Positions 5,000 through 51,425 of a stretch of 64,000 nucleotides of DNA are shown here, in pieces (the first letter of the stretch is position 1; every line of letters begins with the position of its first letter). Source of the DNA: Mobula hypostoma (taxonomy: Eukaryota). The notes under the pieces were generated by a model. The model saw only the letters and a list, made by a program, of their open reading frames with translations. It did no database searches and had not been told where the DNA came from. A program made the translations under genes and the position numbers. The stretch spans positions 6,882,001 through 6,946,000 of the forward strand of contig NC_086108.1 of assembly GCF_963921235.1 (NCBI RefSeq). The letters are read 5' to 3'.

Positions 5000-5317
<318 letters not shown>

Positions 5318-5504
5318 TGATCTACGTTACGTGATGGAATTGCAAAAAGTTTGATTATAATAGACTTTGTAATGCTTGATTACCTTGTATCACCTGCACT
5401 TCCAATGTAGAGCATGCTGAAGCTGTATGCACTGAGATGTACTTGAGGCTTAATTAATTTAATTCTAATCAATTCCACTTTAATTGTCATTCAACCGTAC
5501 ATGA

Positions 5505-6545
5505 ATGGAGAGAAAATTTTAAAAACTGAGGTGCAAAGGGGCTTGGGAGTCCTCGTGCAGGATTCCCGAAAGGTTAATTTGCAGGTTGAGTCAGTGGCAA
5601 GTATGATGTTAGCATTCATTTCAAGAGGTCTAGAATATCAATTTAATTTCATTTCAATTCCACTTTAATTGTCATTCAACTACACACGAGTGCCCATGTA
5701 TACAGCCAAACAAACATTCTTACTCTGGGGTCAAGGCGAAAAACACAGTACCAACAGTCATATGCAGCGCAAAGAATCACAAGCACAAATAGTATCACAT
5801 GCACATAATGAAAGAGTCCAAAGCTTGTGCCATCGAACAGTGGTGGGACAGCTCTGACTCCAGCCCTGACACCATGCCGCATCAAACCAGCGGAGAGCAC
5901 CGGCCCTGATGCAACCCCCCGCCAGCCAGCACGACACTGCGGCTTGAGGCCCAGTCCCCCATGTACAAGATAACAAGCACATATAGAATATCTGCAAAAC
6001 ACAAGTGTGTAGAATATATATGTATAAAAGAAAGCGTGTAATATTGAGGCTTATTGTGAGCAGTTTTGTGCCCCTTACTTAAGAAAGGATTTGCTGACAT
6101 TGGAGAGATTTCAAAGGAGGTTCATGAAAATGATTCCAGGATTGAAAGGCTTGTCATATGAGAAGCGTTTGATGGCTCTGGGTGTCTACTCACTGGAATT
6201 CAGAAGAATGAGGGGTGACTTCATTGAAACCTATTGTATATTGAAAGGCCCCAATATAATGGATGTAGAGAAAATGTTCCCTGTGGTGAGGGAGTCTAAG
6301 ACCTGAGGACACTGCCTCAGAATAGAGGGTCGTACATTTAGAACAGAGATGAGGAATTTCTTTAGCCAGAGTGGTGAATCTGCAGAATTTGTTGCCACAG
6401 ACGGCTGTGGAGGCCAACTCTTTGGGTATATTTAAGGCAGAGGTTGCTTAGTCAGGGCATGAAGGCTTATGGGGAGAAGGCAGGAGACTTGGGGTTGAGA
6501 GGAGAATGTATCAGCCATGATGAAATGTTGGAGTTGACTTGATGG
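5505..6545 (+). mobile_element. Degenerate CR1 3' fragment interrupted by another LINE tail (~5640-6030)
   Basis: LERFQRRFMKMIPGL...LEFRRMRGDFIETY peptide; related fragments at ~9880-10200(-), 11015-11325(-), 13520-13970(+), 33420-33720(-), 53555-53875(-). Confidence 0.8.
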
Positions 6546-7124
6546 GCCACCTCTGTGGAGATGAGGATTTATGGGATTGGGAATCTCAAGAATTCTGTAC
6601 TAATGTTGAACGTAGGCAAGGTTGCCATAGATTATGGGCTGTAGGAGGATGTTATGGGGAAATAGGAAAGTGGAGTTGATTTACTGAGTTATGGAGTAGG
6701 TTTGAGCTGGGGAGGGGATGTGGCCACTTGTTACATAAAAACCCACCGGTAGAATAATTGCCTATTAATGTGTTATGGCGATCAAAAGGATTAAAGAGTC
6801 TAAATGTATATAATCCAGTGCCGAGTCTCAAAGAATTTTCTGATCTATATTCTGCAATGGTTGGCTGAGTGCATCCGAATTGCTGTGTAAGTGGAGGAGT
6901 TTCTATTGAATGCAGTGTTTTTAATGTGCCAGGCTGCAGTCACAAGGGTGTGGCTTTCTGGCAGCTGTTTGCTTAGGTTACTGCAAGGGTAGGGGTTTTC
7001 GTGCTGAGTCTGCTCTACAGGTCAGCAGGAATAGCAGCCACTTCTCCTGTGTGGGGAGCTAATACTATTAACTGATCAACTTTGCAAGGCACCTCGTACT
7101 TGGTGCATTGAAGTTCTCCACAGT

Positions 7125-7855
7125 ACAGAATCAGAATTAGGTATATTATCACTGATGTGTGTCATGATATTTATTGTTTTGCAGCAACAGTATAGTGCAA
7201 TACATAAAATAAAATAAATATATATAAAATAGTGCAAAAAGAGAGCAAAACTAGTGTGGTAATGTTCATTGTTCAGGAACCTGATGTCGGGGGGAAGATG
7301 TTCCTAAAACACAGTGTGTGTCTTCAGGCTCCTGTATCACCTCCCTGATGGTAGCAGTAAGAAGAGGGCATATTTTGGTGGTGACAGTCCTTGAGGCTTC
7401 ACCTTTGAAGATGCCGCTGAGTTTGCAGTCTTCTGCAGTCTTTTCTGAACCATCCTCCATACCAGATGGTGATACAACCAGTTAGAATGCTCTCCACAGT
7501 ACATTGCAGAAATTTGTTGGTCCTTGGGGACATCCAAAATCTCCTCAAACTCCTAATGAAATATAGCCACTGGCGTGCCTTCTTTGTAATTCCATTCACA
7601 CATTGGCCAAGGATAGATCTTCAGAGAGTTGACACCCAGGAATTTGAAACTGCTTACTGCCGATCCCTCGATAAGATCTGGTGTGTGTTCCCTTGACTTC
7701 TATTTTTTGAAGTCCACAATCAATTCCATGGTCTTATTAGCATTGAGTGCAAGCTTGTTGCGACACTGCTCAACTAGCTGAGCTATCTCGCTCCTGTACA
7801 CCACCTCGTCTCCACCTGAGATTCTGCTGACAGCAGTTGTGCACTGAAATCTCAT
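7125..7855 (-). mobile_element. Rex1/Babar-type LINE 3' fragment
   Basis: KARQWLYFIRSLRRF, VESILTGCITIWYG, ELIVDF; related copies at ~210-655(-), 8404-8850(+), 9100-9465(+), 18610-19170(-), 29795-30295(-), 42860-43470, 47880-48330(-). Confidence 0.85.
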
Positions 7856-10800
7856 TGCAGCATACGAGTGGGTAGGAGACATGATTAATACTTAATTTTG
7901 AATGGAGAAAACTGAATTTGAAGCATGGGTGTTTTAATTCTTTTTGTGGTTGGGAGGTGGGGGAGGTTTCTTTATGTATCCAATGTCGTCACTCTGAATG
8001 AAATTGGAATATGTGGCCTTCAGAGCACTTCAAAAAAGCATTTGTTAGCTTTCATCATCTTGTGGTTTATGAATCAGAAAGATTTTATGTGACAGGAGTT
8101 CAATATATACGTATTTGCTGAGTAGGAGCAAGGCACACTTCCTGCTGATTGCATTGGTATTCACTTAAGAAATCCAAATGATATGCCATCTGGAGCACTC
8201 ATTAATATGTATTTCAGTCTTGATTATTCACCAACCAATGAAGATGGTCATGTATTGAGGAAGTTGGTAGCCTTGTGGCTAGAGCTGGCGTTTGGACTGT
8301 GGACTGGGTGCGCAGTTGGGGTCGGAAATTTAGGGAGTCGAGCGACTTGATTAGTCGTATCTCTATCTGGTGTGTGAGTAGCTGAGCATCAGACCAGAAG
8401 TCCCTACAAAGGACTGTGAGAATACCAGAGCCGGTCGTACCATCTATCAGAGATATTTATCAGGAACACTGCGTTCATTGGGCCCTTAGAATTATTAAGG
8501 ATCCCACGTCCATCCAGCATCCTCTTTGACTTTCTACCATCAGGCAGGCGTCTCCGATGTATAAAGACAAGAACATTCAGGATGGGAAACAGTTTCTTCC
8601 CCCAGACCATTAGGCTTCTGAATTTCCTGCCGCATCGTATTCAAAGTATCACTGGTTAATTTGTTCTGTGCCTTACAATATTTAATTTATGCACTTTACT
8701 TTGTTTATTTATGTGTAACCTATCTGTAGGTTTTATCCTTACTTTCGTTCTTAAGTTATTCTGTGTTCTGTATACGTCAGTATTTTACATCCTGGTCTGG
8801 AGAAACATTGTCTCATTTGACAGTTTACATGTGTATAGTTAAATGACAGTAAACTTGATTTTCTTTGTAGTTCATGTTAGGAGTGCCACAGGGTGAAATG
8901 TATGCTCAGCTTGCAAGCTGAAACTTGCTGCCTGTAAATGTGCTGAGTTCACTATTACAACACTGTGTTGCATGTAGGAGCAAGCATTTCAACATTGTAC
9001 GAGTCACATCCAGTAGTCCAGAAAATCTAGTCTACCACAACCAAAGTGAGGGCTCCACGGATCCGAATTGGGAGCCTCTGACCCATATTAATTTAGAAAC
9101 TCTTACACTCAACATTAGTAGGATCAAAGAACTGATTGTGGACTTCAGGAAGGGTAGGACAAGAGAACACACATAGAGGGATCAGAAGGGTAGAGAGTGA
9201 GCAATTTCAAGTTCCTGTGGGTATCAGTATCTCTGAGGATCTATCCTGGACCCAACATATCGATGCAGCTGCAAAGAAAGCACAACAGTGGCTATATTTC
9301 ATTAGGAGTTTGAGGAAATTTGGTACGTCACCAAAAGTACTTGTAAATTTCTACAGATGTACCATGGAGAGCATTCTGACTGGCTGCATCACCATCTGGT
9401 ATGGGGGGGGGGGGTGCTACTGCACAAGATTGAAATAAGCTGCAGAAAGTTGTAAACTCAGTCATCTACCAGTCTTTTTTGTTTCAAGTATAGATCATCT
9501 TTGATCTCTATCCACTGAATTTCAGGAGCTCTTCTCTGTATCATCTTACATAATTAACAGCATTGCCATCTCTTGACAAGCCTGTATTTTGTATATTAGC
9601 CTGATTTGCCTGTTACATTGAAGGGATTTCTTCATCTTACCACCTAGATCAGCAATTTTGTTTTGCTGTTGAAAAGCTACTTTGTTCCAAAGGGGAAAAA
9701 ATTACTAGACTTCACTGGGTTGTCAAGATATTTTTTAAACTTGGCACATAAATGAGTGGGCTTAACTAGTTCTTTGCTGTCGTATGCATCTTAAGTCACT
9801 GGCATGACATTATGCTTGGGGATCCCTGGTGCTTTTGAAACTTTAGTTGTGATTTCTTTAACATTTAAAAAGCATTCCATTAGACCATAGCAGCAGAATT
9901 AATCAATTCGGCCCATCAAGTTGATCCTGTCCTGATATCATGGCTGATTTATTATCCCTCTCAACATCATGCTTCTGCCTTCTCCCCGTAACCTTTGACA
10001 CCCATAGTAATCAAGAACCTATCAACCTCTGCCTCAAATATATGCAATGAATTGGCCTCCACTGATATTTATGGCAATGAATTCCACAGGTTCACCACCC
10101 TCTGGCTAAAGGAATTTCTTCTCGTCTCTGTTCAAAGAGACATTCCTCTATTCTGAAGTTGTGTCCTCTGGTCCTGGACTCTTACCATAGGAAACATCCT
10201 CTTGGAGAGAGAGAGAAGGAGACCCAGTGTTAGTTGTACACTACAGAAAGGTGCTAGGTTTTGACCATTGTTAACAGAAGTAAGTAACAGAAAGGAGGCA
10301 CTTTTGTACCATTCTCCAATAATTTGTTTGTATCCTGCTAATGAAATACTGCTGTCACCATAAAGCCGTTGCTTCTGCTCTCCAAAGCTTATACTTGGCC
10401 ACTTTGTAAGGTAATTCACCCAAGCACTAGCACCATCAAAAGAGGGAAGTGAATTAGTAAGCAGAAAGGAGGTAGTCAAGCCAAAATGCTTCTCATTTTT
10501 TCCCTCTTTCCTGTAACAGTTTTATTGGAAGCCAGCTGCCCTTTAGTGACTATGGTGTGTAATTTTTTTTTGCCTTGTGTATCAGGAACTTGGATTATGA
10601 AAACCATTCTAACTAGCCTCAACACTTGTTTTTGTAAGGTCTCTTCCTGATGCTCATATATATTAAAAATGTTCTCTACATTTTTTAACCCATTCTGTTC
10701 AGCTGAATCAGAAAGCCAAACATGATTAGAACAATAAAAATCATGGAATCTTTTAGGGCTGGTATTGGCTGCATATTTTAACGGTTTGTGTAGTCACAAA

Positions 10801-11583
10801 GCTGAGCTAATGCGGTTTGGTAACCACTGACAAATGGAGATGTATTTATATCATTGACTCATCTACAAATGGTGTGCCTAAGCTTTTACTGATCTGGTCT
10901 TGATATAAATGACTGCAAAACAACTAGAATTAAAAATATGTTTTTAATTGATTACCAAAATGCAGAGCTCACTGTTTGGCTCATTCTTTCTAGAGTATAT
11001 TACAATCAGTACTTAAGACCATAAGATGCAGGAGCAGAATTAGGCCATTCAGCCCACCTAGTTATCTCTACTATTTCATCACGGTGATCCATTTTTCCCC
11101 TCAGCCCCAATCTCCTGCCTTCTCTCTCTATCCCTTCATGCCCTGGCTAATCAAGAGCCTGTTGACCTCCATTTTAAATATATCCAGCGATGGCCTCCAC
11201 AGCTGCCTGTGGCAGCAAGTTCCACAGACTCACCACCCTCTGGCTAAAGAAATTCCTCCTCATCTCTGTTCTAAAAGGATGCCCCTCTATTCTGATTCTG
11301 TGTCCTCTGGTCCTAGTCGCTCCTGCCAAAAGAAACATTTATAAGTGTTGTACTGTTTAACAAATTCGAATATTTTTCACACTCACTGGCAGAAAGCAGT
11401 ATAGCAGCTAAACTAACGGTTTATCACCTCTCTCATTTTTCATTAGCACATTACCCACATGATGTAATTGTTTTAATTGTAGCCTAGTAACTAATTTATC
11501 TCTCTTTTAAAGAATTTCTCTCATCTATAAAAGTGATATACTTTTCAGAAGTGCCATTTCAGCGTTGTTTCACAGTTGAAAAG

Positions 11584-12712
11584 CAGGATTTATGAACATT
11601 TGGAGAGGCGCAATACGATTAGGAATAGTCAGCATGGCTTTGTCAAAGGCAGGTCGTGCCTTACGAGCCTGATTGAATTTTTTTGAGGATGTGACTAAAG
11701 ACATTAATGAAGGTAGAGCAGTAGATGCAGTGTATATGGATTTTAGCAAGATATTTGATAAGGTAGCCCATGCAAGGCTTACTGAGAAAGTAAGGAGTTT
11801 GTGGATCCAGAACTGGCTGGCCCACAGAAGACAAAGAGTGGTTGTAGACGGGTCATATTCTGCATGGAGTTCGGTGACCAGTGGTGTGCCTCAGGGATCT
11901 GTTCTGGGACCCCTGCTCGTCATGATTTTTATAAATGACCTGGATGAGGAAGTGGAGGGATGGGTTAGTAAATTTGCTGATGACACAAAGGGTAAGACTC
12001 TTGGCAGTTTGGGGGATCGGAGGGATCTTGGGGGCTGAGTCCACAGGATACTCAAAGCTGCTGTGCAGGTTGATTCTGTGGTTCAGAAGGCATACAGTGC
12101 ATTGGCCTTCATCAGCCGTGGGATTGAGTTTAGGAGCTAAGAGGTAATGTTGCAGCTATATAGGACCCTGGTCAGACCCCACTTGGAGTACTGTGCTCAG
12201 TTCTGGTCACCTCACTACAGGAAGGACATGGAGACCATAGAAAGGGTGCAGAGGAGATTTACAAGTATGTTGCCCGGATTGGGGAGCATGTCTTATGAGA
12301 ATAGATTGAGTGAACTCAGCCTTTTCTCCTTGGAGCGGTGGAGGATGAGAGGTGACCTAATAGAACTATATAAGATGGTGAGAGGCATTGATCATGTGGA
12401 TAGTCAGAGGCTTTTTCCCAGGGCTGAAATGGTTGCCACAAGAGGGCACATATTTAAGGTGCTTGGGAGTAGGTACAGAGGAGATGTTAGGGGTAAGTTT
12501 TTTACGCAGAGAGTGGTGAATGCATGTAATGGACTGCCAGCAATGGTGGTGGAGGCGGATACGATAGGGTCTTTTAAGAGACTCCTGGATAGGTACATGG
12601 AGCTTAGAAAAATAGAGAGCTATGGGTAATCCTATGGGTAATTTCTAAGGTAAGGACATGTTCGGCACAGCTTTGTTTGCCTGTATTGTGCTGTAGGTTT
12701 TCTATGTTCCTA
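11584..12712 (+). mobile_element. CR1 LINE 3' portion, intronic, inserted into a solo LTR
   Basis: ORFs 11673-12038 ([13 protein letters not shown]) and 12147-12629 (LVRPHLEYC, FFTQRVV). Confidence 0.92.
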
Positions 12713-14561
12713 TCTGTTTATTTAGTTTGCTTAGTTTGTTTGCACTCTAAAATAAACTGAAATCATAAAATTAAGACTACTCATCATTCCTTACTCCCAG
12801 AAGAACCCTAAGGATCAGGAGTTATTAGAAATCAAACAGTGGAAAACCCGATTCAGTTATAGGAGAGGAATGGCCTGCAGAGGAAGTTTCAAAGTGTTTA
12901 ACTGCACGTTATTTTTGTGTCTTGGAGGGAGAGGATGAAGAGGATCACGACCACGTGAGTGGTGAGAAAAAAAAGATTGAAGAGATTTGAGGAGTGATGA
13001 TAATTGGAGGAAAAAGTAATTTTGCAGTTAATGAGTAGGAAACTAAGTCGAGGATTGTTGGTGTGGAGATGGTGACGGGCTAGGAAGGGAATTAAAGCCT
13101 AGTGGGCAGTTACATTCCCTGGTACTGATAATATTTTAACACCCACCACAAGGCTGTAATTCTCCCTATGAGAATGCAGTCTGTGTTCCAGAAGGCTATT
13201 GTAATTAGTTTTGGAAACTTGCACTAAATTTCAGGTGTCTACTTGTGGTCAATATGCATGGTACAGGATAGGAGCAAACGTTGAAAGCAGCGAAGAATGA
13301 GTAAGCTGTGGAGAAAATGAAGCTGTACTCTTGCATCCTTTGCTAACAAACAGCGTTATCGCGACCTGCAGTTTTGTAGGTTGAACATAGCTTAATGGGA
13401 AACAGTTTGGTGTTGTAATTTTAGTTATGGTCTGATTTTTAAAGCATTTTATGTCATCTTAAATTGGTATGTTGCATAATGGTTATGGGTTAATCGGGTT
13501 TACTGTATACTGGCTGTATATGGATTAACATATGAGGGGAGCGTTTGGTGGCTGTGGGTGTATACTTGCTGGAATTTAGAAGAATGGGGGAAGAGGATTT
13601 CATCAAAACCTATCAAATATTGAAAAACCTAGGTAGAGTGGATGTGGACAGGATGTTTCCTATAGTGGGGAAATTCTAGGACCAGAGGATACAGCCTCAG
13701 AATAGAGATACATGCCTTTAGAACAGAGATGAGGAATTTCTTCAGCCAGATGGTGCTGAATCTGGAATTTTTGGCCACTGATGGCTATGGAGGCCAAATC
13801 ATTGGGTATATTTAAAGCAGTGGGTGATAGGTTCTTGATTGGTAAGGGCGTCAAAGATTACAGGGAGAAGGCAGGAGAATGGGGTTGAGAGGGACAATAA
13901 ATCAGCCATGATGGAATGTTAGAGCAGACTTGCTTGGCTGAATGGCCTAATTCTACTCCTGTGCCTTATGATCTTTTGCTACTCTGTACTTGGGATTTCA
14001 TTGCACATTCCCCTAGTTGTTACAGTTCTCTAATCTTAAAGCTCTCCCTGACCATCTGTATTACGTTAATAACCATTTTACTTCTGGCTATATACTTCTG
14101 AATAATTGCAGAAGAAGAAAGTAGTTTAATTAGTTGAATATTTTGTTTCACAAAGCTTAACATTTTAAAATACGCAGTAAAAACAATTGGATCCATAGGA
14201 ACATTAATTTTCCCCTCTTCCCACACCCCTCGCATCTCCTTCATTCAAGACTGCATGATTGTTTGGCAAAAAGAGGACGATAGGTTCTCCATTCTTCCAA
14301 TTGGTTGGCTTTTATTTCAGTAAGACTGACCATTTCAATTAGTTCAAAGGCCAAAGAGAGGACCAGAATTTTTCATTCATGCATAATGTGTACAACAGAT
14401 TCTCAGAAATTCATTTTGTCTTGTCATAGAAATAAAACTGGTCACAATGTGTCAACACAGCTTGGCAGAACTGGGCACGTTTGTTGACTGCTGATTTTTG
14501 ACTCTTGCCAGAATTGTTGATGAAAAGCCTTGTTTTTAGGGGGGGGGGAAGGATTTAAAAT

Positions 14562-14797
14562 CCTGACACAAAATTCTGCAGGAACCTAGCAGGTCAGGCA
14601 GTATCTTTGGAGAGGAATAAACAGTTGACGTTTCAGGCTGAGATCCTTCATCAGGATTGATTTACTGATGACGACATCTCAGTCTGTAACATCGACAGTT
14701 CATTCTTCTCCATAGATGCTGCCTGGCTTGCTGAGATCCTCCAGAATTTTGTGTGCATTGCTTTGGATTTCCAGTATCTGCAGAATCTCTTGTGTTT
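14562..14797. mobile_element. Inverted (head-to-head) pair of Penelope pseudo-LTR fragments
   Basis: Minus copy ~14565-14657 and plus copy ~14665-14797 are mutually complementary; each has a hammerhead-derived core. Confidence 0.8.
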
Positions 14798-14871
14798 AAA
14801 ACCATAAAATGGTCAGTATACTCTTATTGACAAGGAGGATGTTAATTTTTTCCCCTTTACTGTCAACTTGA

Positions 14872-15327
14872 TGTTGGATCTCTGCTTAATTTCTGATCCT
14901 TGGGTTCTTCGGGAGTCAAAAACGGTGAACAGTCTTAATTCCAAGATTACAATTTATTTTAGACTACAAACATACAAACAAATACAAAGCAAACTAAATA
15001 AAGAGCTGAGAAATTATACTAAGAGGGAAATTAATGCTAAAGGGTGTAAGACAAAGGAAAGAAGATGGTGCTTCTGAAAAAATTTATCACTTTCATAGAT
15101 GAGAGAAGGGAAATTCCTTGGATAGGAATGAATTAGCTAACAGGTTACATAATTAAAACAATCACATCATGTGGGTGATGTGCTAATACTTAGCCAGGGA
15201 AAAATGAGAAAGGAGAGAAGCTGTCAGTTTAGCTGCTTTATGGCTTTCTGCCAGTAAGTGTGAGAAATACACGAATTTGTTAAAAAATACAAATCTTATA
15301 TTTAAAAAAAAGTAGTGGTTTCCAGCA
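14872..15327 (-). mobile_element. Solo LTR, same family as 49366-49813
   Basis: TGTTGGA...TCCAGCA termini; collinear with the 49.4-kb copy; no clean TSD. Confidence 0.65.
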
Positions 15328-15352
15328 TTACCAGGAGAAGAAATTAAGAAAA

Positions 15353-15820
15353 ACGCACACAAAGTGCTGGAGGAACTGAGCAAGTCAGGCGGCATCTATG
15401 GAATAGAGTATTTCAGTCTGAGACCCTTCATCAGGACTTGAAAGTATGGGGAGAAGTCAGAGTAAGAAGTTGGGGTGGGGTGAAAGAAGTACAGGGTAGC
15501 AGGTGATGGGTGAAACAGGGGGAGGGGGTGAATCTGATAGGAGAGGGTAGAAGACCATGGAAGAAAGGGAAGGTGGAGGAGCATGAGAGGAAGGCGATGG
15601 CAGGTAAGGTGACAGAAGGAAAAATGGGAATGGGGAATAGTGAAGGTGGTGGGCAATTACTGGAAGTTCGAGAAATCGATGTTCATGCCATCATGTTGGA
15701 GGCTACCCAGACGGAATAGAAGCTGTTACTCCTCCGACCTGGCTGTGGCCTCATTGCAGCAGTAGAGAAAGCTGTGGACTGACACGTCAGAATGGCCAAC
15801 CTGCTGACTTCCTCCAGCAT
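15353..15820 (-). mobile_element. Penelope 3' fragment (end of GIY-YIG plus pseudo-LTR)
   Basis: Similar to 44700-45200; hammerhead remnant at ~15405-15438. Confidence 0.8.
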
Positions 15821-18800
15821 TAAAGGTGATAAACTGTTAGTTTAGCTGGCAGAAAGCAGAATAACTGAGTGTGAAAATTACATGAGTTTGTTAAAAAGTA
15901 CATATCTTATAAAAAGTGGTATTAAAAAGAAAACAGTGGTTTCCAACATTACCAGCGTCAGAAATTAAGAACAAGGCCTCTAACCAACTTCCTTTCAGTA
16001 TGTCAAATAGACATGAATTATGTGAATACGTTAACTGCAACTTTAAAGTAGATGTTTTTTTGTTTCCCTGCCCAGTAATTATTATTCCAAAAATCTTGCC
16101 AGAAAGTTCAGTGGTTATTGAGTTACTATGGACCCTGTCAGTTTTCCAAGCCCTTGTTTTTGCAAGATGTGGAATTAGTGACAAAACAGAGAAGAATGCA
16201 GAAAATATTGCTTTTGGGTTGTATATTTAGTATTGCATTGCTGCTGAGGTTACTGTTAAAGCTGGGGATAGTGACCACTACCACCAGGCATGCAGTGAGA
16301 CTGCAGCTGCATGTCAGCAGTGCCTTAAACTTGGAGCAGCTTTGTTTAAAGTACAGTACTGTAGTAATTTTATGTATTGCACTGTACTGCTGCCACAAAA
16401 AAATTATAACTTGTGTGAGTAATGATAAACCTAATTCTGATATGGGTCTTAGTTGTGGACTGAGAATGAGAAGGGGACAGGGAGAGGGAAATCATGGTTG
16501 GGAAAAGGGGAAGGGGGAGGGGAGGGCGCGGAAAGCACCAGAGAGATATTCTATAATGATCAATAAAGCAATTGTTTGGAATCAAGTGACCTTGCCTGGT
16601 GTCTCAGGGCTGGGTGTGTCTGTGCCCATGCCACCCCCTACCCCCCCCCCACCATGGTGTTCCACCCTCACCATTCCCAACATCCTTTGCTCCTGCCAGA
16701 TTTACAAATACACTCTGCTCCACGATGACAAATACAGTACTGTGCAAAGTCCTAGCCAGCCTAGCTGTATATATGTCCCTAAGAGTTTTGCACAGTACTG
16801 TAGTTTTGCTCGGATTTAATGTCCCAGTGACGTATTTAAATATTCAATTAATGTGATTTTAATGCATAGGTCATATGAGATTTAGAAAATTCCAAGCAGA
16901 GCTGTGGGCAGAGGATATCACATTATTTGCATTAAGTGGGTAACATAACAGCATGCCTTTGGTTTTAATCAACATCAAATTTTTGCAATGCCATATTCAA
17001 AGTTTCAAAGTACGTTTAATATCAGAGTATGTATATAATATACAACCTGAAATTTGTCCTCACAGACATCCACAAAACAAAGATACACCACAGAACGATT
17101 GAAACCTCGAAGCCCCCTCCCCTTCGCACAAGCAGCAACAAAAGCATTAATGCTGCCACTTCCACCCCCACCCCCACCTGCACCGGCAGAAGCACCAAGC
17201 CCTCCAGAGTCCATCAGACTACAGCAGTTCGGTATGTCAGACAGGCTGTTTCTCTAACAAGGGAGATGACGTTCCCTGCTGCAACAACGAGAGCAGAGAC
17301 CAACTCTCTGCTCCAGTACTGAACTCTTTTGCGTCACTTCTCCAAGCCTCCCGTCTTAAAGACTGACAGGCTCTCACTCTCTTCATGTCCCCTTATTGGA
17401 TTTAGAGAAGTAAATCTTGTTCCCTTTCTCCAGGTTTAAGAAACAATATATTTGTAAGCAAGTTTGGCAGGATTTTAAAACATTGTAGAGGTTAGTTTGG
17501 TTAACAAAGGAGGTGGGGAGTAATGTTATATTGCAAAGGAGGACATACAAAGTGACTAGGAGGTTTTTGCATCATGCATGAATGATGAAGCAGCTCACAA
17601 GGGTGAAAATTGATTTTAAAGAGCTTCGTGTGTGATATCAGAAATTTCTGTGGCTATATAAAAAAGCAGCTAAGGCAAACATCTGGAGAATGAGACTGCT
17701 TGCTTGATAAAGAAATGGCTGTTGTGTCATACCAATGATTTTTTTTTTGCATCACTCTGCCATGGAGGGCACCTGGATCAAGAACAGTTACTACCCTAGA
17801 ACCATGAAGCTCTCGAACAAAAGGGGCTCACTTTAGGTCTCTTTAACTCATTATCTGATGTTCCTGTTACTTACTGCTGTTTATTTATATTTGCATTTGC
17901 GCAGTTTGCTGTCTTCTGTACTCTGGTTGATCTTTCATTGATCTCGTTACAGTTACTGTTCTATAGATTTGCTGAGTATGCCCACAGGAAAATGAATCTC
18001 AAGGTAGTATATGGTGACATATATGTACTCTGATAATAAAATTTACACTGAACTTTTGAACTTTGAAATATCCCGAAGGTTACAGGCAGGCTCAATTCAA
18101 GAAATTTGTAAAAAAAAAGATGAAATTACGAACGTAAATAAATAAATCCCAATTGCAAAGGATGAGGTATCAGAGAAATCCATGGGGCTAAAGGCAGACA
18201 AATTGTTGGGACCCGATGGATTTTTTTTTTAAGGTGACGACAAAAATAGTGGGCCCATTGGTCGAAAACTTTTCGAAACTTTCCAAATTTTGGGAGAGCA
18301 TCAGAAGGTTAGGAAAATGGTCAGTGGTGGTTCCTCCCAGAAAGGGAGGAAGACAGGAAGGCAGGGCAATGAGTTTTACATCTGTTGGCAGGATGCTAGA
18401 GTCAGAACAAAAGGGAAATGACTAATCACTTGGGGAAGCTGTAAATTATTAAACATAGTCAAAGTAGTTTTATGGAAGGTAAAACATGTTTGATAAATTG
18501 GATTGAATTCTGTGAGGACGTGGCAATGAGAATTGATAAAGATATTTGAAAGGCATTTGAGAAGGTGGCATGTCGTGCTAGCCTCCTGAGAGCCCAAACC
18601 TACTGGAGGCAGTTCAAAGTAAATTTATTATCAAAGCACATATATGTCACCATGTACAATCCTGAGATTCGTCTTTTTTTTTTGTGGATATACTCAATAA
18701 ATCTACAATAGAATAATAACCATAATAGAATCAATGAAAGACTGCACTAACTTCGACATAATAATGAATAGATAAATAATATTGAGAACATGAGATGACG

Positions 18801-21250
18801 ACTCCTTGAAAGTGAGTCCATAGATTGTAGCTCAAGAGCCTGATGGTTGAAGGGTAGTAACTGTCCCTGAACCTGATGGCAGCAGTAAGAAGAGAGCATG
18901 ACCTGGGTGGTGGTGATCCCTAATGATGGTTGCTGCTTTCCTGCAACAGCGCTCTGTGTAGATATGCTCAATGGTGGGAATAGCAGAGGGCTTTACCCTT
19001 GAAGGACTGAGCCGTATCCACTACCTTTTGTAGGACTTTCCATTCAAGGGCAATGGTGTTTCCATACCAGGCTGTGATGCAGTCAGTCAATATATTCTCC
19101 GTTGCACCTCTATTGAAGTTTGTCAAAGTTTTAGATGTCATGCAGAAAGTTCATAAACTCCTAAGGAAGTGTCAGCATGGACAGAAAAATGTCTGTCACA
19201 CTAGGGAGGAATAGATGGGTTCTTTCAGGCTGGAGGGATGTAACTAGAGGAGTATCCTTGGCCTCAATTGATGACTATTTGCATTAATGACCTAGAGGAG
19301 AAAACAAAATATAAAGTTTCCAAGCTTGCTGACAGTGTGAAAGGAAGCAGAAGGGGTTATTGTGATGAGGGCACAGTGATTCTAGAACAGAATGGATGCT
19401 GGGTGATGTTCCAAAAAACTAACGACTGAAGTTTAATGCAGGAAAGTCTGTAGTTTCATGAGGAAAATCAAAAACCAGATGTCTTAAATGGAAAGTGACC
19501 TGAAGTAAGTGAAGTTCAGATGGATCTGAGTGTTCTAGTGTGTGAGTTACAAAAGGTTAACAGGATGTCATTGAAGCTACAGCTGAAATACTGAGTGTTT
19601 TGGTCCCTTTACTAGTGGCCAATCAAATGAACCAATGCCACTGCTGGTGAACTAGCACAAGTTGTTATCATTGTATGACACGCCTTCCAATCATACAATA
19701 ATAATGTCCCACAAAGTGGAAGAAAATGAACTGACCCTTTATTAGCAATTTGTGAAACAAACAATCTTGAAGCGATGTAACTAAGTGGTCAACAAAAGAC
19801 ATGACACCCGGCGGTCCCCAGAACCAAATTAAACTGCCCAGAACAAAGCATGCATATGTAACTTATTCCCTTTGCTTTTACAGTGCCCCCGCCCACCCGC
19901 CCGCCCCAAATCACATGACTGGTTACCATAATAAACACTCAACAGAATACACTGCAGATACAAAACACATGCATGGCATCTACAGTAGTATTGGAGTCCA
20001 AAGTAGATTCATCAGGCTAATTCCTGGAATGAGAGGATTGTCCTATCGAAAAAGAAGCTGGACCAGGGATTCTCGGCCATTTTTTTAATGCCGTGGGTCA
20101 ATGCCATTAAGCAAGGGTTTGGGGACCCCTGCTCTGGATAGTTTCAGTTTGAATTCTTCGAGTTTTGAAGAATGAGGGGTGACACAAGATCCTAATGGGG
20201 AGGGGGGTGGTTGTGGTACTGGGCAGGTAATACGTTGAGATGTTTTCACTAGTGGGAGAGCCCCAAATAAGGGGACATGGTTTACAATGGCAATATACTG
20301 TGTAACTACATGTAGAACAGTACAGGTTCTTTGGCCCACAATATTGCTCTAACCCTTTAACCTAGTCCAACATCAATCTAACCCTTCTGTCCCACATGTC
20401 CCAGCATTTTTCGATCATCCATATGCTTATTTAAGTTTCTTAAATATCCCCAATGTATCTACTCCTACCAACAGGCCTGGCAGGTCCATCACCTCGTCAA
20501 CTGAGGTGGACAAAATTTCTCCTCGGGAAGGTAATGAACCTTGGAAATTTGTTGCACCCCCTCCACCTCACTATCACCACAAAGGATCCAAGGATGGTGA
20601 AGAACAGATCATTAGATAGATTTTAAGGTGGAGGTGGATTGAAAGATCGAGGAATTGAGGGCTTTGGGGTAATGATAGTGAATGATTTGAGCGTCTGGTG
20701 GACTACTATACATTGTTCGAATCCTGTGAGCTGAATTTTAAAACTGAGCCACTCAGTTTAAAAGAATTCTGCCTCACCGATTCCCTTGAGGTCATACTTG
20801 CTCTCGTGGGCACAGCACAAATTATAGCCGTCACATTAGTAGTGTTAAAATCAATTATTCCTCAGGCTTTCTAACCTTAAAATTTTGGTCCAATTTAATT
20901 TTAGGTATTCATTTGTTCCATTTAATGTCGCTCATTCATAATTCTAGAAGTACAACTTTAGATTGTTTACTGATTTGCCAAATGTGGTTTTAATTTTATT
21001 TTGAAATAACAGATCAAAGACAAGATTGGTATTATCCTTATTAAATGGGTGTAAAATACTTTTGAGATTTTTAATGAGATAGTTAACTTCTGAAAAGGTG
21101 ACAGAAGTAACAACTTCAGTGAGAGCGATACGTTTACTGACTTGCTCATGATATAATTGTTTGGTACTGTTTTAAAGCTGAGGTTTGTTTGAAATTCATG
21201 ATTTCATTTGGAATTTGATTTTCATTTAAATGTTTTCCATTGTTTGTTGT

Positions 21251-21470
21251 CTAACAGTTTTATTTTCCTTCTCTCCATCTGCATGTTTTGTGCATGGTGC
21301 ATGCTGTGCCGAATCACCAACTGCACCAAAATGCCGCCCTCCTTTTTCCCCTTGTTTTCCCCCTCCATTCCTCCCTACCTCCGATTTACCCCCCCCCCAC
21401 CCACTGTGTGTGCACACGTCATGTCACCTGCATACCTGCATGCTCTGGTCTGCACCGTGATCTCGTATAG
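21251..21470 (+). promoter_or_regulatory. Distant branch point (CTAAC, A at 21254), AG-exclusion zone and RBFOX/CAC motif cluster for exon 19a
   Basis: No AG dinucleotide between 21258 and the acceptor at 21469-21470; TGCATG at 21280, 21291, 21298, 21437; long pyrimidine tracts. Confidence 0.7.
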
Positions 21471-21551
21471 GACCATAGCGGGAAACTGGGACCTGAAGAG
21501 TTTAAAGCCTGCCTTATCAGCTTGGGCTACGATGTTGGAAATGACCAGCAG
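21471..21551 (+). CDS. ACTN4: Mutually exclusive exon 19a (non-muscle, Ca-sensitive EF-hand 1), DHSGKLGPEEFKACLISLGYDVGNDQQ
   Basis: cgtatag|GAC acceptor, CAG|gtatag donor, 81 bp; matches the NM exon of ACTN1/ACTN4; not shown in this frame by the ORF track. Confidence 0.93.
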
Positions 21552-21586
21552 GTATAGATGATTTGAATGAATTACGAGTCCGTCAA

Positions 21587-21817
21587 TAGCTAACTATGTT
21601 TTTTTTTCCCTCCACTTCTCTCCTGGATTCTGTGTCCTGGCCTTTCCCCGAATTCCTTTTTAAATTACCCTCACCTGTTCTTTTACATTTGTGTTTTCTT
21701 TTCCTCCTCCTCTGGATTTGGTTCTGTACCTGTCTCGTCTAATATGTAAACCCTTGTTCATGGTACCATGCCCTCTGTGTGCATGTATTTTTCTCCTGCT
21801 CGCTCCTGTTGGAGTAG
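21587..21817 (+). promoter_or_regulatory. Distant branch point (tagCTAAC, A at 21593), long polypyrimidine tract and AG-exclusion zone for exon 19b
   Basis: No AG from 21590 to 21812; pyrimidine tract starts directly after the branch motif; TGCATG at 21780. Confidence 0.75.
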
Positions 21818-21883
21818 AAGCGAACCGGGCTGATGGACGCTGATGATTTCCGGGCTCTGCTTATCTCTACGGGCTACAGTCTG
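21818..21883 (+). CDS. ACTN4: Mutually exclusive exon 19b (smooth-muscle/neural type, Ca-insensitive), KRTGLMDADDFRALLISTGYSL
   Basis: gagtag|AAG acceptor, CTG|gtacgc donor, 66 bp; DDFRALLISTGYSL is the ACTN4-type 19b peptide as recalled (ACTN1 SM reads DDFRACLISMGYNM). Confidence 0.9.
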
Positions 21884-23842
21884 GTACGCTTCCTGTTCCT
21901 CCTTCACATCTCCAGCCGGCAATACCCGGCGTTTGACCTGTGTTCAGTAAATCTCTTGTAAAGGTAGTCCTACTCTCAGTCACACCGTAAAATTTCTGTG
22001 TGCCCAATCCATAGGTAGGTTTCAGATTGGGCAGTAATTTGTAACTTCAACTGGTCAGATGAGTTATTCCAAAGTATCTCACACTGGGTTAATCTTTCAA
22101 AGTATTCCCAGGTTTTGTTCTTGAGATCTACTGAAAACGAGGCAGTTGGTTTTAGTGTGCAGATATTTTCTTCCACTTCACTTAAACATGCAGTTTCTGC
22201 TCTGCAGATGAGTGATGGTATAAGAGGAAATTTGAGGTTGAATGAAGCAGAAAATACAGCAAAAATTTAATCCAAGACATCTTACTGTCAAACCTCTCTC
22301 AATTGCTGAATAATTTTGAAGTTACATTTTTTTTGCCCAAGTTCTTGGTCATCTTTGCCTGCATCAAATAAGCTGAATCCCTCTCTAATTTCTGGAAATG
22401 TAGTCATTTTGGTTCCAGACATTCATATCATGTTTTGGCACTGACCGTTACATGAATCTATTGGCTGGTTGCTTTGGTGACAATCTATAAAGATTTTTCA
22501 GAAGTAAGGTGAAGCTGGAATCATAGTGCGATTCCCAAATAGAATTACTCTCTAAAATTGTACTTGAAATGCGAGGTGAGAAAAGCTACCTGCTCAGTAT
22601 GGATTTCCTGATGACAAGAAACATAGAAACATAGAAAATAGGTGCAGGAGTAGGCCATTCAGCCCTTCAAGCCTGCACCGCCATTTATTATGATCATGGC
22701 TGATCATCCAACTCAGAACCCTGCACCAGCCTTCCCTCCATACCCCCTGATCCCCATAGCCACAAGGGCCAAGAAGGCAAAGAATACTCAAGATTGGATT
22801 GGGGAAGCTCAGTTTCAGTTTCTGTTTCACGCCCAGGTTCAAAAGTACATTTATTATCAAAGTATGTATAAATTATACGACCTTGAGATTCATTGCCTCT
22901 AGGCAGCCATAAAGCAAGAACCCCAGAAGAACCCAGTTTAGAAAAAGAGCAACACCCAATGCACGGGGGGGGGGGGGGGGAAACAAATCATGCAAGCAAC
23001 AGCATTCAGAACAAAAGTAAATCCATAGACAGCACTGATTTTTCATGGAATTCAACCTCTCTATTCTCAAACAAAGGGCAAATTATGTTGAGAAATTTGG
23101 ATAAAAAGTGGCAAAAAATTTGGGGGGTAGAAAATAGAATATTATTTTCATTTCAGTGTGGCAGTGACTAGTCAAGAGTTGCCTATTTTCCATAAAATCT
23201 TGGCATAGCTTCCATTCAAAGTCAACTGCAGTCTTGGATCCCTCAGTTGCAAGTTCCAAATGAGTGCCAGCTGTGTGTGCCCCTTGGTGCATTAAATTTG
23301 ACCTGCCTAGTTTCCCATGTCATGATGGCAAGGAAATAATTCTACAATTTACCTCTTGCCTTTTTTTTTGCCACACACTTGTTTTAGTACAAAGAAGATT
23401 CGCTAGGCTTGAGTCCTGGGATGAGAGGGTTGGCCTAGCAAAGAACTAAATAGTTTGCACCTGAACTCCGAGAGATTAATCTTATTCAAACATCAGATCC
23501 TAAGGGCTTTGACAGAGTGGATATTGGGATTTTTTTTACAAGTGGGAGAATCTCAGACAAGGGCACATGCTTGATAGGGGCTGGTCATTTAAAACTGAGA
23601 TATGTTGAAATCCCTTCTTTCAGATGGCGGTTAATGTCTTGAACTCTCCACCTGTGAGAGTGGTGGAAATTAGTGTTCAGTGGAGGTGGATAAAGATTTG
23701 AGGAATGGAGGGGCGTGAAGAAAAAGCAGAAGTGTTGAGGCAAGCCTATTTCAGTCGTGATCAGATTAAATGGGGTAGGATTGAAGGGCCTGGGGGCCTA
23801 CTTCCATTTTCTGTGTTTCACTTCACTGCTGTTTTCCCCCAG

Positions 23843-24001
23843 GGTGAAGCTGAGTTTGCGCGCATAATGGGCGTTGTTGCCCCCAACAACACCGAGGAAG
23901 TATCATTCCAAGCCTTCATTGACTTCATGTCACAGGAGACAACAGACACTGATACAGCTGAACAAGTCATGGCCTCCTTCAAGATTTTGGCAGGCGACAA
24001 G
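23843..24001 (+). CDS. ACTN4: Alpha-actinin-4 coding exon (exon 20 equivalent; EF-hand 2/3), [53 protein letters not shown]
   Basis: ttcccccag|GGT acceptor, AAG|gtaaac donor, 159 bp, in frame. Confidence 0.95.
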
Positions 24002-27114: not shown

Positions 27115-27339
<225 letters not shown>

Positions 27340-44696: not shown

Positions 44697-46557
44697 GCAA
44701 CGCTCACAACACACTGGAGGAACTCAGCAGGTCGGGCAGCATCCGTGGAAATGATGTGTCAATTTTTCGGGCTGGAACCCTTCGTCAGGACTGTAGAGGG
44801 AAGGGGCAGAGGCCCTGTAAAGAAGGTGGGGGGAGGGTGGGAAGGAGAAGGCTGGTAGGTTCCAGGTGAAAAACCAGTAAGGGGAAAGATAAAGGGGTTG
44901 GGGGAGGGGGAAGCAGGGAGGTGACAGGCAGGAAAGGTGAAGAAGGAATAGGGGAAAACACAATGGGTAGTAGAAGGAGGCGGAACCATGAGGGAGGTGA
45001 TAGGCAGCTGGGGGAGGGAGCAGAGTGACATAGGGATAGGGCAAGGGAGGGGGAGGGAATTACCGGAACTTGGAGAATTCTATGTTCATACCAAGGGGCT
45101 GGAGACTACCTAGATGGTATATGAGGTGTTGTTCCTCCAACCTGAGTTTAGCCTCATCATGGCAGTAGAGGAGGTCATGTATGGATATATCTGAATGGGA
45201 ATGGGAAGCAGAGTTGAAGTGGGTGGCCACCGGGAGATCCTGCCTGTTGTGGCGGACGGAGTGAAGGTGCTCGACGAAGCGGTCCCCCAATCTGCGTCGG
45301 GTTTCACCGATGTAGAGGAGGCCACACCGGGAGTACCGGATGCAATAGATGACCCCAACAGACTCACAAGTGAAGTGTTGCCTCACCTGGAAGGACTGTT
45401 TGGGGCCCTGAATGGTGGCAAGAGAGGAGGTGTAGGGACAGGTGTAGCACTTACACTTACAGGGATAAGTGCCGGGTGGGAGATCTGTGGGGATGGATGT
45501 GCGGATAAGGGAGTCGTGGAGGGACCGATCCCTGCGGAAGGCAGAGAGGGGTGGAGAGGGAAAGATGTGCTTAGGGGTGGGGTCCTGTTGAAGGTGGTGG
45601 AAGTTGCGGAGGATAATGTGCTGGATCCAGAGGCTGGTGGGGTGGTAGGTGAGGACAAGGGGAACTCTGTCCCTGTTGTGTTTGCGGGAGGATGGGGTGA
45701 GGGCCGAAGTGTGGGAAATGGAGGAGATGCGGGTGAGGGCATTGTTCATGACGGAAGAAGAGAAACCACGATCTTTAAAGAAAGAGGACATTTGAGATGT
45801 CCTGGAAAGGAAAACCTCATCCTGGGAGCAGATGCGGCGGAGACGGAGGAACTGGGAAAAGGGAATGGGATTTTTGCATGTGGTGGGGTGGGAAGAGGTA
45901 TAGTCGAGGTAGTTATGAGAATCAGTGGGCTTGTAGAAGATGTCAGTAGACAGTCTGTCTCCAGAGATGGAGACTGAGAGATCGAGAAAGGGGAGAGAAG
46001 TGTCCGAGATGGACCAAGTGAATTTGAGGGCTGGGTGGAAGTTAGAAGTAAAGTCGATGAAATTGACGAGCTCAGCATGGGTGCAGGAAGCAGCACCAAT
46101 GTAGTCGTCAATGTACCAAAGGAAAAGTTGGGGAGCAGTACCGGAATAGGTTTGGAGCACAGACTGTTCCACATAACCAACGAAGAGGCAGGCATAGCTG
46201 GGGCCCATGAGAGTGCCCATAGCTACACCCTTAGTCTGAAGAAAGTGGGAAGAGCCAAAAGAGAAATTATTAAGTGTGAGAACCAGTTCCGCCAACCGAA
46301 AGAGGGTAGTGGTGGTGGGGAACTGGTGAGGTCTATTATCCAGGAAGTAGTGGAGGGCTTTGAGGCCTTCTTGATGGGGAATGGAGGTGTATAGGGATTG
46401 GACATCCATAGTGAAAATGAAGTGGTTGGGACCGGGGAACTGGAAGTTATTGAAGAGGTGGAGGGCATGGGATGTATCCCAGATGTAGGTGGGGAGGGAC
46501 TGAACTAGGGGTGACAAAATGGAGTCCAGGTAGGCAGATACAAGTTCGGTGGGACAG
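44697..46557 (-). mobile_element. 5'-truncated Penelope-like retroelement (Neptune-like): RT + Cys linker + GIY-YIG endonuclease ORF (45060-46517, 485 aa) and 3' pseudo-LTR
   Basis: TMDVQSLYTSI, GVAMGT.MGPSYA and YIDD RT motifs; CKCKCYTC linker; GVIYCI...LYIGETRRRLGDRFVEH; 12-bp TSD GCATATTTCAGT at 44685-44696 and 46558-46569. Confidence 0.93.
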
Positions 46558-47070
46558 GCATATTTCAGTACTAATTACAAGTTCTAGTTACCATAATTAT
46601 AAGTACATAAGATAGCATATATGCATTGATTGTATGTCCAGGCTGTACGTAAGGTGACTGACAGGAAGTAAAAAAGTAGTGGTGGAGGTGTTGATCAGCC
46701 AGCATCTCTCTGTATACACATCCTCGATGGTGGGTAGGTGGTGCGAGTGACGCACTGGGCAGATTTGACTATCGTTGTAGACCCTTCCTGTCCACCACAA
46801 TGCAGTTTCCATCTGTAGAACGACATGGGTATAGATGTGCAAAGCTCAGCTCTCTTCAGCGTCCTCAGAAAGCAGAGGCACTGATGAGCTTTCCTGACTC
46901 TGTAGGATGTGTTCTGGGACCATGAGAGGTTGAACAGGAAGCGGCTGCAATTTTCAGCTGAATTACGTTCCTCTGTGGCTGCAGGGCAACCGCAGAGTTT
47001 CCGCTGCTCCAGCCTTGGTTTATCATCTGCGGGGCCTCACCACCACCATGTGGGGAAAGTGCCTGCTCTG

Positions 47071-50721: not shown

Positions 50722-51379
50722 TATCTACTAACCCCCTCTGATACCCACTACCCCCCTCTGATACCCACTAACCCCCTCTGATACCCACTACCCTCCTCTG
50801 ATACCCACTAACCCCCTCCTGATACCCACTACCCTCGATACCCACTAACCCCTCTGATACCCACTAACCCCCTCTGATACCCACTAACCCCCTCCTGATA
50901 CCCACTAACCATGTCTGATACCCACTAACCCCCTCTGATACCCACTAACCCCCTCCTGATACCTACTAACCACGTCTGATACCCACTAACGCCCCTCCTG
51001 ATACCCACTAACTCTCTCCTGATACCCACTAACTCACTCCTGATACCTACTAACCCCCTCCTGATACCTACTACCCATGTCTGATACCCACTAACGCCTC
51101 TCCTGATACCCACTAACTCACTCCTGATACCCACTAACCACGTCTGATACCCACTAACACCCCTCTGATACCCACTAACCCCCTCCTGATACCCACTAAC
51201 CCCCTCCTGATACCCACTACCCCTGATACCCACTAACACCCCTCTGATACCCACTAACTCCCTCCTGATACCCACTAACTCCCCTGATACCCACTAACCA
51301 CGTCTGATACTCACTACCCCACCTCTGATACCCACTACCCCCCTCTGATACCCACTACCCTCTGATACCCACTAACCCC
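50722..51379. repeat. Minisatellite, ~18-22-bp unit CTGATACCCACTAACCCCCT
   Basis: About 30 variant copies visible. Confidence 0.95.
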
Positions 51380-51425
51380 ATCTAGTATCTCAACCTTTAA
51401 CATACACACAAGATATTCTGCAGAT

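What the first reader, a model, noticed from the sequence alone, without database searches (positions are those of the whole stretch)
21471..21883. Steric mutual-exclusion switch in ACTN4: exon 19b branch point only 42 nt from the exon 19a donor
Seen: the 266-nt intron (21552-21817) has a good branch motif (tagCTAAC, A at 21593) followed by a long pyrimidine tract and no AG until 21813. The branch A is 42 nt from the 19a donor and ~224 nt from the acceptor. Both exons are multiples of 3 (81, 66), so NMD cannot remove double inclusion. Established: a ~42-nt donor-to-branch distance enforces exclusivity in alpha-tropomyosin exons 2/3, whereas mammalian ACTN1 can include both NM and SM exons in brain. 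Inference: this ACTN4 has a hard-wired Ca-sensitive/insensitive switch, apparently dating to early jawed vertebrates.
Basis: partly seen in the sequence, partly recalled or inferred. Interest (0 to 1): 0.7.

Follow-up and report, generated by a model that had tools for sequence, protein, structure and literature searches.

The report
Leaky branch-point switch in ray ACTN4
A ray's alpha-actinin-4 gene picks between a calcium-sensing and a calcium-blind exon using a splicing trick already known from mammalian alpha-actinin-1, and the choice looks leaky rather than hard-wired, so this is mostly a new example of something known.

Summary
The anatomy is as described. Exons 19a (81 nt) and 19b (66 nt) of a cartilaginous-fish (ray) ACTN4 flank a 266-nt intron. 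The best branch motif has its A 42 nt from the 19a donor, followed by a pyrimidine tract and 223 AG-free nt. The branch point is predicted, not mapped.

The reading 'hard-wired, unlike ACTN1, dating to early jawed vertebrates' mostly fails. (1) The design is published for rat Actn1 (cited at second hand), and this genome's ACTN1 and ACTN2 show it too (+54/+58, about +50), so it probably predates the paralogue split. (2) In-frame 19a+19b ACTN4 models exist for five cartilaginous fishes, and human ACTN4 has a curated one (NP_001427229.1). (3) A teleost-type ACTN4 keeps the distant branch motif but about 1,040 nt from the donor.

Best reading: a leaky steric bias on top of RBFOX/PTB/CELF-type regulation; exon 19a has its own distant branch candidate and four upstream UGCAUG. 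Four laid runs showed only 19a, so exclusivity is untested here. The scan noted this trick earlier in another genome's calcium-channel gene. New member of a known kind; interest low.

The parts
5102..5248 (+). ACTN4 exon 18 (upstream constitutive exon; ends in the first EF-hand; exon numbers follow the mammalian convention, recalled)
   Evidence: tblastn of ray proteins; splice sites read; loose contig ends matching its 3' end in front of exon 19a in X1, X3 and X8
21249..21255 (+). Candidate distant branch point of exon 19a (GTCTAAC, A at 21254, -217)
   Evidence: Best-scoring candidate in the last 300 nt of the intron; predicted only
21258..21468 (+). AG-free zone (211 nt) before exon 19a, holding four TGCATG RBFOX-type elements at 21280, 21291, 21298 and 21437
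   Evidence: 4 seen against 0.08 expected from 8 in 21,060 nt of neighbouring intron; Poisson P about 2e-6
21471..21551 (+). Exon 19a (non-muscle type, 81 nt, 27 aa; completes a canonical EF-hand loop, Ca-sensitive by inference)
   Evidence: 100% to ray proteins; spliced to exon 20 in 4 of 4 runs laid
21552..21817 (+). Intron between 19a and 19b (266 nt, GT-AG)
21588..21594 (+). Predicted distant branch point of exon 19b (AGCTAAC, A at 21593 = +42 from the 19a donor, -225 from 19b)
   Evidence: motif and spacing unchanged in a contig of related organism B; not mapped
21590..21812 (+). AG-free zone (223 nt) with long pyrimidine tract; weaker branch candidates at 21663, 21667, 21673 and 21742; one TGCATG at 21780
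21812..21817 (+). Tandem acceptor GAG/TAG; use of the upstream GAG would put TAG in frame as a stop, so TAG must be the productive site
   Evidence: Read directly from the sequence; competition of AGs within 12 nt described in PMC2991248
21818..21883 (+). Exon 19b (smooth-muscle/brain type, 66 nt, 22 aa; Lys at EF-hand position Y, Ca-insensitive by inference)
   Evidence: matches the 19b segment of annotated shark and ray isoforms; not seen spliced in the 4 runs laid
23843..24001 (+). Exon 20 (downstream constitutive exon)
27181..27339 (+). Coding part of the last exon, with stop codon

Best explanation
This is the vertebrate alpha-actinin EF-hand exon pair 19a/19b in a ray ACTN4, spliced the way rat Actn1 NM/SM exons are. 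Both exons use distant branch points followed by long AG-free pyrimidine tracts (inferred). Exon 19b's main branch point lies 42 nt from the 19a donor, so the spliceosome parts bound at the 19a donor and at this branch point crowd each other and 19a-19b joining is disfavoured (inferred from the published ~50-nt threshold). The block is a bias, not a lock: some 19a+19b mRNA can form, probably through weaker downstream branch sites (+112 to +122, +191) or tissue-specific relief (inferred). That product is in frame and probably still binds calcium, as the ACTN1 brain form does. Which exon is chosen is set by RNA-binding proteins: by default 19a is used (shown in 4 of 4 runs) and 19b is held off at its pyrimidine tract (PTB-type); in neurons and muscle RBFOX-type proteins on the four UGCAUG upstream of 19a repress 19a and 19b is used (inferred from mammalian Actn1). 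The layout probably predates the ACTN1/2/4 duplications.
For: Sequence anatomy and statistics. Orthology: the paralogue on C1 falls in the ACTN1 clade (98/100) and the ray proteins that match the window group with ACTN4 (84/86) (92/88); exon 19b carries the ACTN4-type FRALLISTG motif; a calpain gene lies about 250 kb upstream on the same contig (ACTN4-CAPN12 linkage recalled). Same layout in paralogues: ACTN1 intron 380 nt, AG-free about 350 nt, branch candidates +54/+58; ACTN2 intron 372 nt, AG-free about 333 nt, candidate +50. Threshold of ~50 nt, citing tropomyosin and actinin (PMC7969005; PMC1431707; PMC5740500). Leak: 5 of 24 chondrichthyan ACTN4 models examined, from five species, contain both exons, one of them 49 of 49 identical to the window's two exons; curated human isoform 5 has both. 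In OGDH, an added competing branch point yields double inclusion. Fox-1 represses the actinin NM exon through upstream (U)GCAUG (PMC2777236); PTB represses the SM exon (PMC5062968). The ACTN1 double-inclusion form binds Ca like the 19a form (PMC4435478).
Against: No branch point is mapped. The chondrichthyan double-inclusion proteins are predicted RefSeq (XP_) models whose read support I could not see; they may be modelling artefacts, and I do not have those species' introns, nor the human one. One search was seeded with a double-inclusion query, so its yield says such models exist, not how common they are. No double-inclusion model was seen among the Mobula or Hypanus records listed, though only 15 of 49 members of the main cluster were shown per call. 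In the teleost-type locus L022 the steric part is absent altogether, which suggests it is dispensable. ACTN4 orthology has only moderate tree support (84/86). The +50 candidate in ACTN2 (TTCTAAA) is a weak motif.
Confidence: 0.68

Rival explanations
1. Hard-wired lock: in this lineage the 42-nt spacing makes 19a-19b joining impossible, giving a strict binary Ca-sensitive/insensitive switch, stricter than ACTN1.
For: 42 nt is under the ~50-nt threshold and shorter than the +54/+58 and +50 of the paralogues. Human OGDH reporters with branch points at +25 to +41 gave no double inclusion. Spacing is unchanged in related organism B.
Against: Double-inclusion models in five cartilaginous fishes including a stingray, and a curated human one. 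Alternative branch candidates with pyrimidine tracts lie beyond the threshold inside the AG-free zone. Fish and frog Ogdh reporters did leak.
Confidence: 0.13
2. Proximity is incidental: the conserved element is the distant branch point with its long tract, a landing pad for PTB/CELF/RBFOX-type regulators, and exclusivity comes only from those proteins.
For: Exon 19a, which has no nearby donor, has the same layout. In L022 the branch motif (-216) and a 227-nt AG-free zone are kept while the intron is 1,255 nt long. Double-inclusion models are widespread.
Against: Three paralogues in this genome all keep the branch candidate within 42-58 nt of the donor, although the other introns of this gene in the window run from about 0.7 to 16 kb. 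Steric repression is the published account for rat actinin and tropomyosin (cited).
Confidence: 0.14
3. The +42 motif is not the working branch point; exon 19b branches further downstream, for example at 21673 or 21742.
For: Four other yTnAy motifs lie in the AG-free zone.
Against: The AG-free zone begins exactly at the +42 motif and the strongest pyrimidine run follows it; the other candidates pair worse with U2; there is no yTnAy motif within 50 nt of the acceptor.
Confidence: 0.05

Closest known systems
Rat/mammalian alpha-actinin-1 (Actn1) NM/SM exons 19a/19b (Southby, Gooding and Smith 1999; not held, seen only as cited in PMC7969005, PMC1431707, PMC2777236, PMC5062968)
   Same: Paralogous exon pair in the first EF-hand; distant branch point of the downstream exon near the upstream donor; long pyrimidine tract and AG-free zone; upstream UGCAUG cluster at the NM exon; in-frame double-inclusion form on record.
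   Different: Gene is ACTN4 in a ray; spacing 42 nt (rat Actn1 about 51-55 nt, recalled; this ray's own ACTN1 +54/+58); shorter intron (266 nt against 380 nt in this ray's ACTN1); nothing mapped experimentally here.
Mammalian ACTN4 exons 19a/19b (PMC4550062, PMC9741552; RefSeq NP_001427229.1)
   Same: Orthologous exon pair; 42 of 49 residues identical over the two exons; Ca-sensitive and Ca-insensitive forms.
   Different: I found no paper giving its branch point; the human intron could not be examined; a curated human isoform includes both exons.
Rat alpha-tropomyosin exons 2/3 (Smith and Nadal-Ginard 1989; seen only as a citation; the 42-nt figure is recalled)
   Same: Founding case of steric exclusion by a distant branch point close to the upstream donor.
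   Different: Unrelated gene; there the downstream exon is the default, here the upstream one is the form seen in 4 of 4 runs.
OGDH exons 4a/4b (PMC7969005)
   Same: Ca-insensitive/Ca-sensitive exon pair; branch points 25-41 nt from the donor in human, 46 nt in a fish; U-rich tract; conserved across vertebrates.
   Different: Branch points mapped by lariat sequencing; double inclusion is unproductive there; order of the Ca-sensitive and Ca-insensitive exons is reversed.

Membership tests
ACTN4 orthologue | Groups with ACTN4, with a separate ACTN1 in the same genome | tested here: met
   C1 paralogue in the ACTN1 clade 98/100; ray proteins matching the window with ACTN4 84/86 (moderate; no clade-rejection test run); C22 exon 20 is 100% to a named ACTN2
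Alpha-actinin EF-hand exon pair 19a/19b | Two homologous phase-0 exons of 81 and 66 nt between exons 18 and 20, each found alone in isoforms | tested here: met
   of 24 chondrichthyan models, 11 have 19a only, 8 have 19b only, 5 have both
Alpha-actinin EF-hand exon pair 19a/19b | 19a form binds Ca, 19b form does not | not testable with these tools
   Loop residues fit (Asp against Lys at position Y, as described for ACTN1 in PMC4435478); no binding measured
Distant-branch-point exons | Long AG-free zone with a branch motif and pyrimidine tract at its 5' end | tested here: met
   223 nt for 19b, 211 nt for 19a
Distant-branch-point exons | Lariat actually forms at the distant A | not testable with these tools
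   Only assembled contigs were available
Sterically enforced mutually exclusive exons | Donor-to-branch distance under about 50 nt | tested here: met
   42 nt for the predicted branch A
Sterically enforced mutually exclusive exons | The two exons are never or almost never joined | tested here: inconclusive
   Own runs show no spliced 19b at all; orthologue models with both exons argue against a strict lock
Sterically enforced mutually exclusive exons | A spacer between donor and branch point relieves exclusion | not testable with these tools
   Needs a minigene
   Kept in related organism B but about 1,040 nt in the single teleost-type ACTN4 locus found, L022; tetrapod introns not available

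The most novel reading that the evidence does not exclude
The branch-point-near-donor layout is ancestral to ACTN1, ACTN2 and ACTN4, and its spacing works as a dial for how much double-inclusion actinin is made (42, about 50 and 54/58 nt in one ray genome; released to about 1,040 nt in a teleost ACTN4). Cartilaginous fishes and some early-branching ray-finned fishes also keep an exon 19a in ACTN2, which would give a possibly Ca-sensitive sarcomeric actinin that mammals lost. One genome would then offer a natural series for testing the ~50-nt steric threshold in vivo.
Probability: 0.3. Interest if true: 0.45.

Novelty: new member of a known kind. Interest (0 to 1): 0.22.

Why it matters
If confirmed, it extends a textbook splicing mechanism from rat Actn1 to ACTN4 and to cartilaginous fishes, and suggests the layout is older than the actinin gene duplications. 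It would not surprise a splicing specialist. The more useful point is that three paralogues in one genome, with predicted spacings of 42, about 50 and 54/58 nt, bracket the quoted ~50-nt threshold, so junction counts from one brain RNA-seq set could test how sharp that threshold is in vivo.

Tried and rejected
Direct test of exclusivity with reads: no run was on record as RNA (22 listed, kind guessed). I laid 4 of the 22 (X1, X2, X3, X8). All are assembled contigs. All 4 show the 19a-to-20 joint (depth 124-2,419); none shows any joint at exon 19b, which is covered only by unspliced contigs at depth 7-29. With 19b unused in these samples, the lack of a 19a-19b joint says nothing for or against exclusion.

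RNA structure as the exclusion mechanism: 21530-21830 folds no better than shuffles (z = -1.12; 13 of 100 shuffles as good); not supported. Long-range docker/selector pairing was not tested.

NMD as the enforcing mechanism: rejected, the joined exons are in frame and open. Minor-spliceosome incompatibility: not considered likely, since both donors read as ordinary GT sites; not scored.

Synteny with EIF3K/PSMD8-family and ryanodine-receptor genes: these map to C40, C18, C22 and C1, not to C50, so they gave no support for ACTN4; only a calpain lies near the gene on C50. A ZFP36L-type gene lies about 11 Mb from the C1 paralogue and about 14 Mb from the C22 one, which does not separate them.

Intron comparison across jawed vertebrates: the one metagenome scan gave 12 loci, of which 1 (L022) had both exons; the other 11 showed a single exon-19-type segment and look invertebrate or protist. 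Tetrapod introns could not be fetched.

Primary papers not held: Southby 1999, Gromak 2003, Matlin 2007, Lek 2010. PMC5378181, PMC5224494 and PMC3368720 added nothing on ACTN4 branch points.

Full report
Observation. The window lies on contig C50 of a 3.48-Gb genome. Its actinin exons match proteins named for stingrays and devil rays at or near 100% (282 residues recovered at 98.9% identity to one of them), so the animal is a ray. Exon 19a is 21471-21551, the intron 21552-21817 and exon 19b 21818-21883; both exons are phase 0 and open. The motif tagCTAAC has its A at 21593, intron nt 42 and -225 from 19b. No AG lies between 21590 and 21812. This gap (223 nt) and the one before exon 19a (211 nt) are the two longest of 1,994 AG-to-AG gaps in 1-27180; five constitutive acceptors have zones of 22-71 nt; the shuffled zone stays AG-free in 224 of 20,000 trials, and the 19a zone in 110 of 20,000. 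The +42 site is the best branch candidate by a simple U2-pairing score of my own and, among the 8 best-scoring candidates printed, by the tract behind it; weaker candidates lie at +112, +116, +122, +191 and +209. The first AG after the zone is a GAG whose use would put a stop in frame; the TAG 3 nt further on is the productive acceptor (read from the sequence).

Which gene. The genome holds four actinin loci: C50, C1, C22 and C82. Databases mostly call the C50 orthologue 'alpha-actinin-1-like', but the skate record is named alpha-actinin-4. In a tree of 22 rows the C1 paralogue falls inside ACTN1 (98/100) and the ray and shark proteins that match the window join ACTN4 (84/86, not starred) (92/88 with 20 rows). 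Exon 19b carries the FRALLISTG motif of ACTN4s, where the ACTN1 and ACTN2 proteins and the other three loci have a CLISMG-type motif. C22 exon 20 is identical to a named ACTN2; C82 is ACTN3 by exclusion. A calpain lies about 250 kb upstream on C50, but the EIF3K/PSMD8-family and ryanodine-receptor hits are on other contigs. ACTN4 is the best assignment.

Exon 19a has its own distant-branch layout (candidate A at 21254) and four TGCATG in the 211 nt before it, against 0.08 expected from neighbouring intron. Two such elements also precede 19a in the C1 and in the C22 paralogue. The paralogues share the intron design: ACTN1 has a 380-nt intron, AG-free from +29 to the acceptor, with candidates at +54 and +58; ACTN2 has a 78-nt 19a-like exon, a 372-nt intron, AG-free from +39, and a weaker candidate at +50 ahead of the tract; C82 has only 19b and a 90-nt zone. 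The intron sequences themselves align poorly, so this is shared layout, not demonstrated site-by-site homology.

Is exclusion hard-wired? Of 24 chondrichthyan ACTN4 models that the searches returned, 11 have 19a only, 8 have 19b only and 5 have both. The five come from Chiloscyllium plagiosum, C. punctatum, Scyliorhinus canicula, Hemitrygon akajei and Amblyraja radiata; the Hemitrygon one is 49 of 49 identical to the window's two exons. A search seeded with the double-inclusion region returned 111 new proteins among the 120 listed of 1,257 hits; all 111 carry both exons (100 by pattern, 11 by eye), and 39 of them are named ACTN4 by my count of the listing, from sturgeon and gar to mammals. That search is biased by design. 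Human ACTN4 isoform 5 (NP_001427229.1, a curated record by its prefix) has both exons. The XP_ models are predictions whose read support I could not see, and I lack those species' introns. In the one teleost-type ACTN4 locus found among 12 metagenome loci (L022), the intron is 1,255 nt, with a 227-nt AG-free zone and a branch motif at -216, about 1,040 nt from the donor. So the distant branch layout is conserved and the short spacing is not universal.

Reads. Four of 22 listed runs were laid; their RNA nature is a guess by the tool, but exon-level depth and spliced joints behave like RNA. All 4 join 19a to exon 20; 3 show exon 18 ends in front of 19a among the loose ends displayed; none shows spliced 19b. 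They show that 19a is a real, used exon and leave exclusivity untested. The organism-B contig over 21523-22652 differs at 12 bases and 9 gap letters, all listed: two changes in the intron, none in the branch motif, no indel before it. For organism C three intron changes are listed, none in the motif, but not all differences were shown.

How it most likely works. Shown: the layout, 19a use, in-frame double inclusion, the paralogue and teleost layouts. Inferred from published systems: branching at +42; crowding between the complexes at the 19a donor and this branch point, which disfavours joining; PTB-type repression of 19b at the tract; RBFOX-type repression of 19a in neurons and muscle; leak through weaker downstream branch sites; Ca-binding by the 19a and double forms and not by 19b. 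Confidence 0.68. Rivals: strict lock 0.13, proximity incidental 0.14, different branch point 0.05.

What is known. [quoted passage not shown] PMC9741552 (passages) lists both genes. PMC7969005 (passages; supplement search): ~50-nt threshold citing tropomyosin and actinin; actinin exons use distant branch points of the smooth-muscle exon; OGDH mapped at +25 to +41; ACTN4 occurs 0 times in the one supplementary file held. [quoted passage not shown] PMC5740500 (passages and supplement rows): 57 human clusters (9%) are potential steric cases; its ACTN1 row lists more than 10 joining reads; the ACTN4 rows I saw concern the other, 86-nt exon pair, and further rows were not displayed. PMC4435478 (passages): the ACTN1 brain form with both exons binds Ca at about 49 uM, the non-muscle form at 56 uM, the smooth-muscle form not at all. 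PMC2777236, PMC5062968, PMC3368720, PMC2991248 and preprint 10.1101/2023.08.19.553947 were read as passages for Fox-1, PTB, CELF, AG-zone rules and double inclusion; PMC5378181 and PMC5224494 as passages without gain. Southby 1999, Smith and Nadal-Ginard 1989, Kremerskothen 2002, Foley and Young 2013 and Lek 2010 were seen only as citations; the 42-nt tropomyosin figure and the 51-55-nt rat Actn1 figures are recalled. Eight searches listed no paper on an ACTN4 19b branch point or on these exons in cartilaginous fishes, judged from listings and the passages read; subscription papers and supplements I could not see may hold one.

Verdict. Real feature, correct gene, known mechanism. New member of a known kind; interest 0.22. 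The boldest reading still open is a spacing dial shared by three paralogues, with a retained ACTN2 exon 19a (probability 0.3, interest 0.45).

Noticed in passing
L005:4042-4119 (-), G000 contig C22: This ray's ACTN2 keeps a 78-nt exon 19a with intact splice sites and EF-hand positions X, Y, Z and -Z fit for calcium. Annotated ACTN2 models with this exon, alone or with 19b, occur in sharks, rays, sturgeons, paddlefish and eel, whereas mammalian ACTN2 is said to use only 19b. One search found no paper holding 4 of its 5 terms.
   Followed up: partly
L005, first 8 nt of the ACTN2 19a-19b intron: The donor of the ACTN2 19a exon overlaps a perfect branch-point consensus (A at +7), with an AG at +37; meaning unknown.
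   Followed up: no
L002:2869-3248: This ray's ACTN1 has two branch candidates 4 nt apart (+54, +58), like the two rat Actn1 SM branch points (recalled).
   Followed up: partly
window 21812-21820: Triple tandem GAG/TAG/AAG at the 19b acceptor; one cyprinid model (P0121) lacks the first Lys of 19b, as use of the downstream AAG would give.
   Followed up: no
window 5249-21470: The exon 18-19a intron is about 16 kb while the 19a-19b intron is 266 nt, in line with size restriction of introns that carry distant branch points (PMC7969005).
   Followed up: no
P0009-P0014, P0123-P0139: The ACTN4 orthologue is annotated as 'alpha-actinin-1-like' in most shark and ray records; the trees place it with ACTN4.
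   Followed up: yes
window 45063-46574 (-): Open frame of about 500 aa that looks like a reverse transcriptase followed by a GIY-YIG-type endonuclease (Penelope-like retroelement; label from recall of the motifs, not scanned).
   Followed up: no
window 22600-22900: High-copy repeat in the 19b-20 intron; summed contig depth up to about 360,000.
   Followed up: no
window 50727-51383, 57677-58293, 61324-61910: Tandem arrays with periods of about 21, 95 and 18-64 nt downstream of the gene; the first accounts for the 693-nt AG-free gap at 50689.
   Followed up: no
P0031, P0140-P0145, P0330, P0334: All 9 lamprey actinin records inspected carry a 19a-type exon; none showed 19b, while a hagfish ACTN2-like record has 19b.
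   Followed up: no
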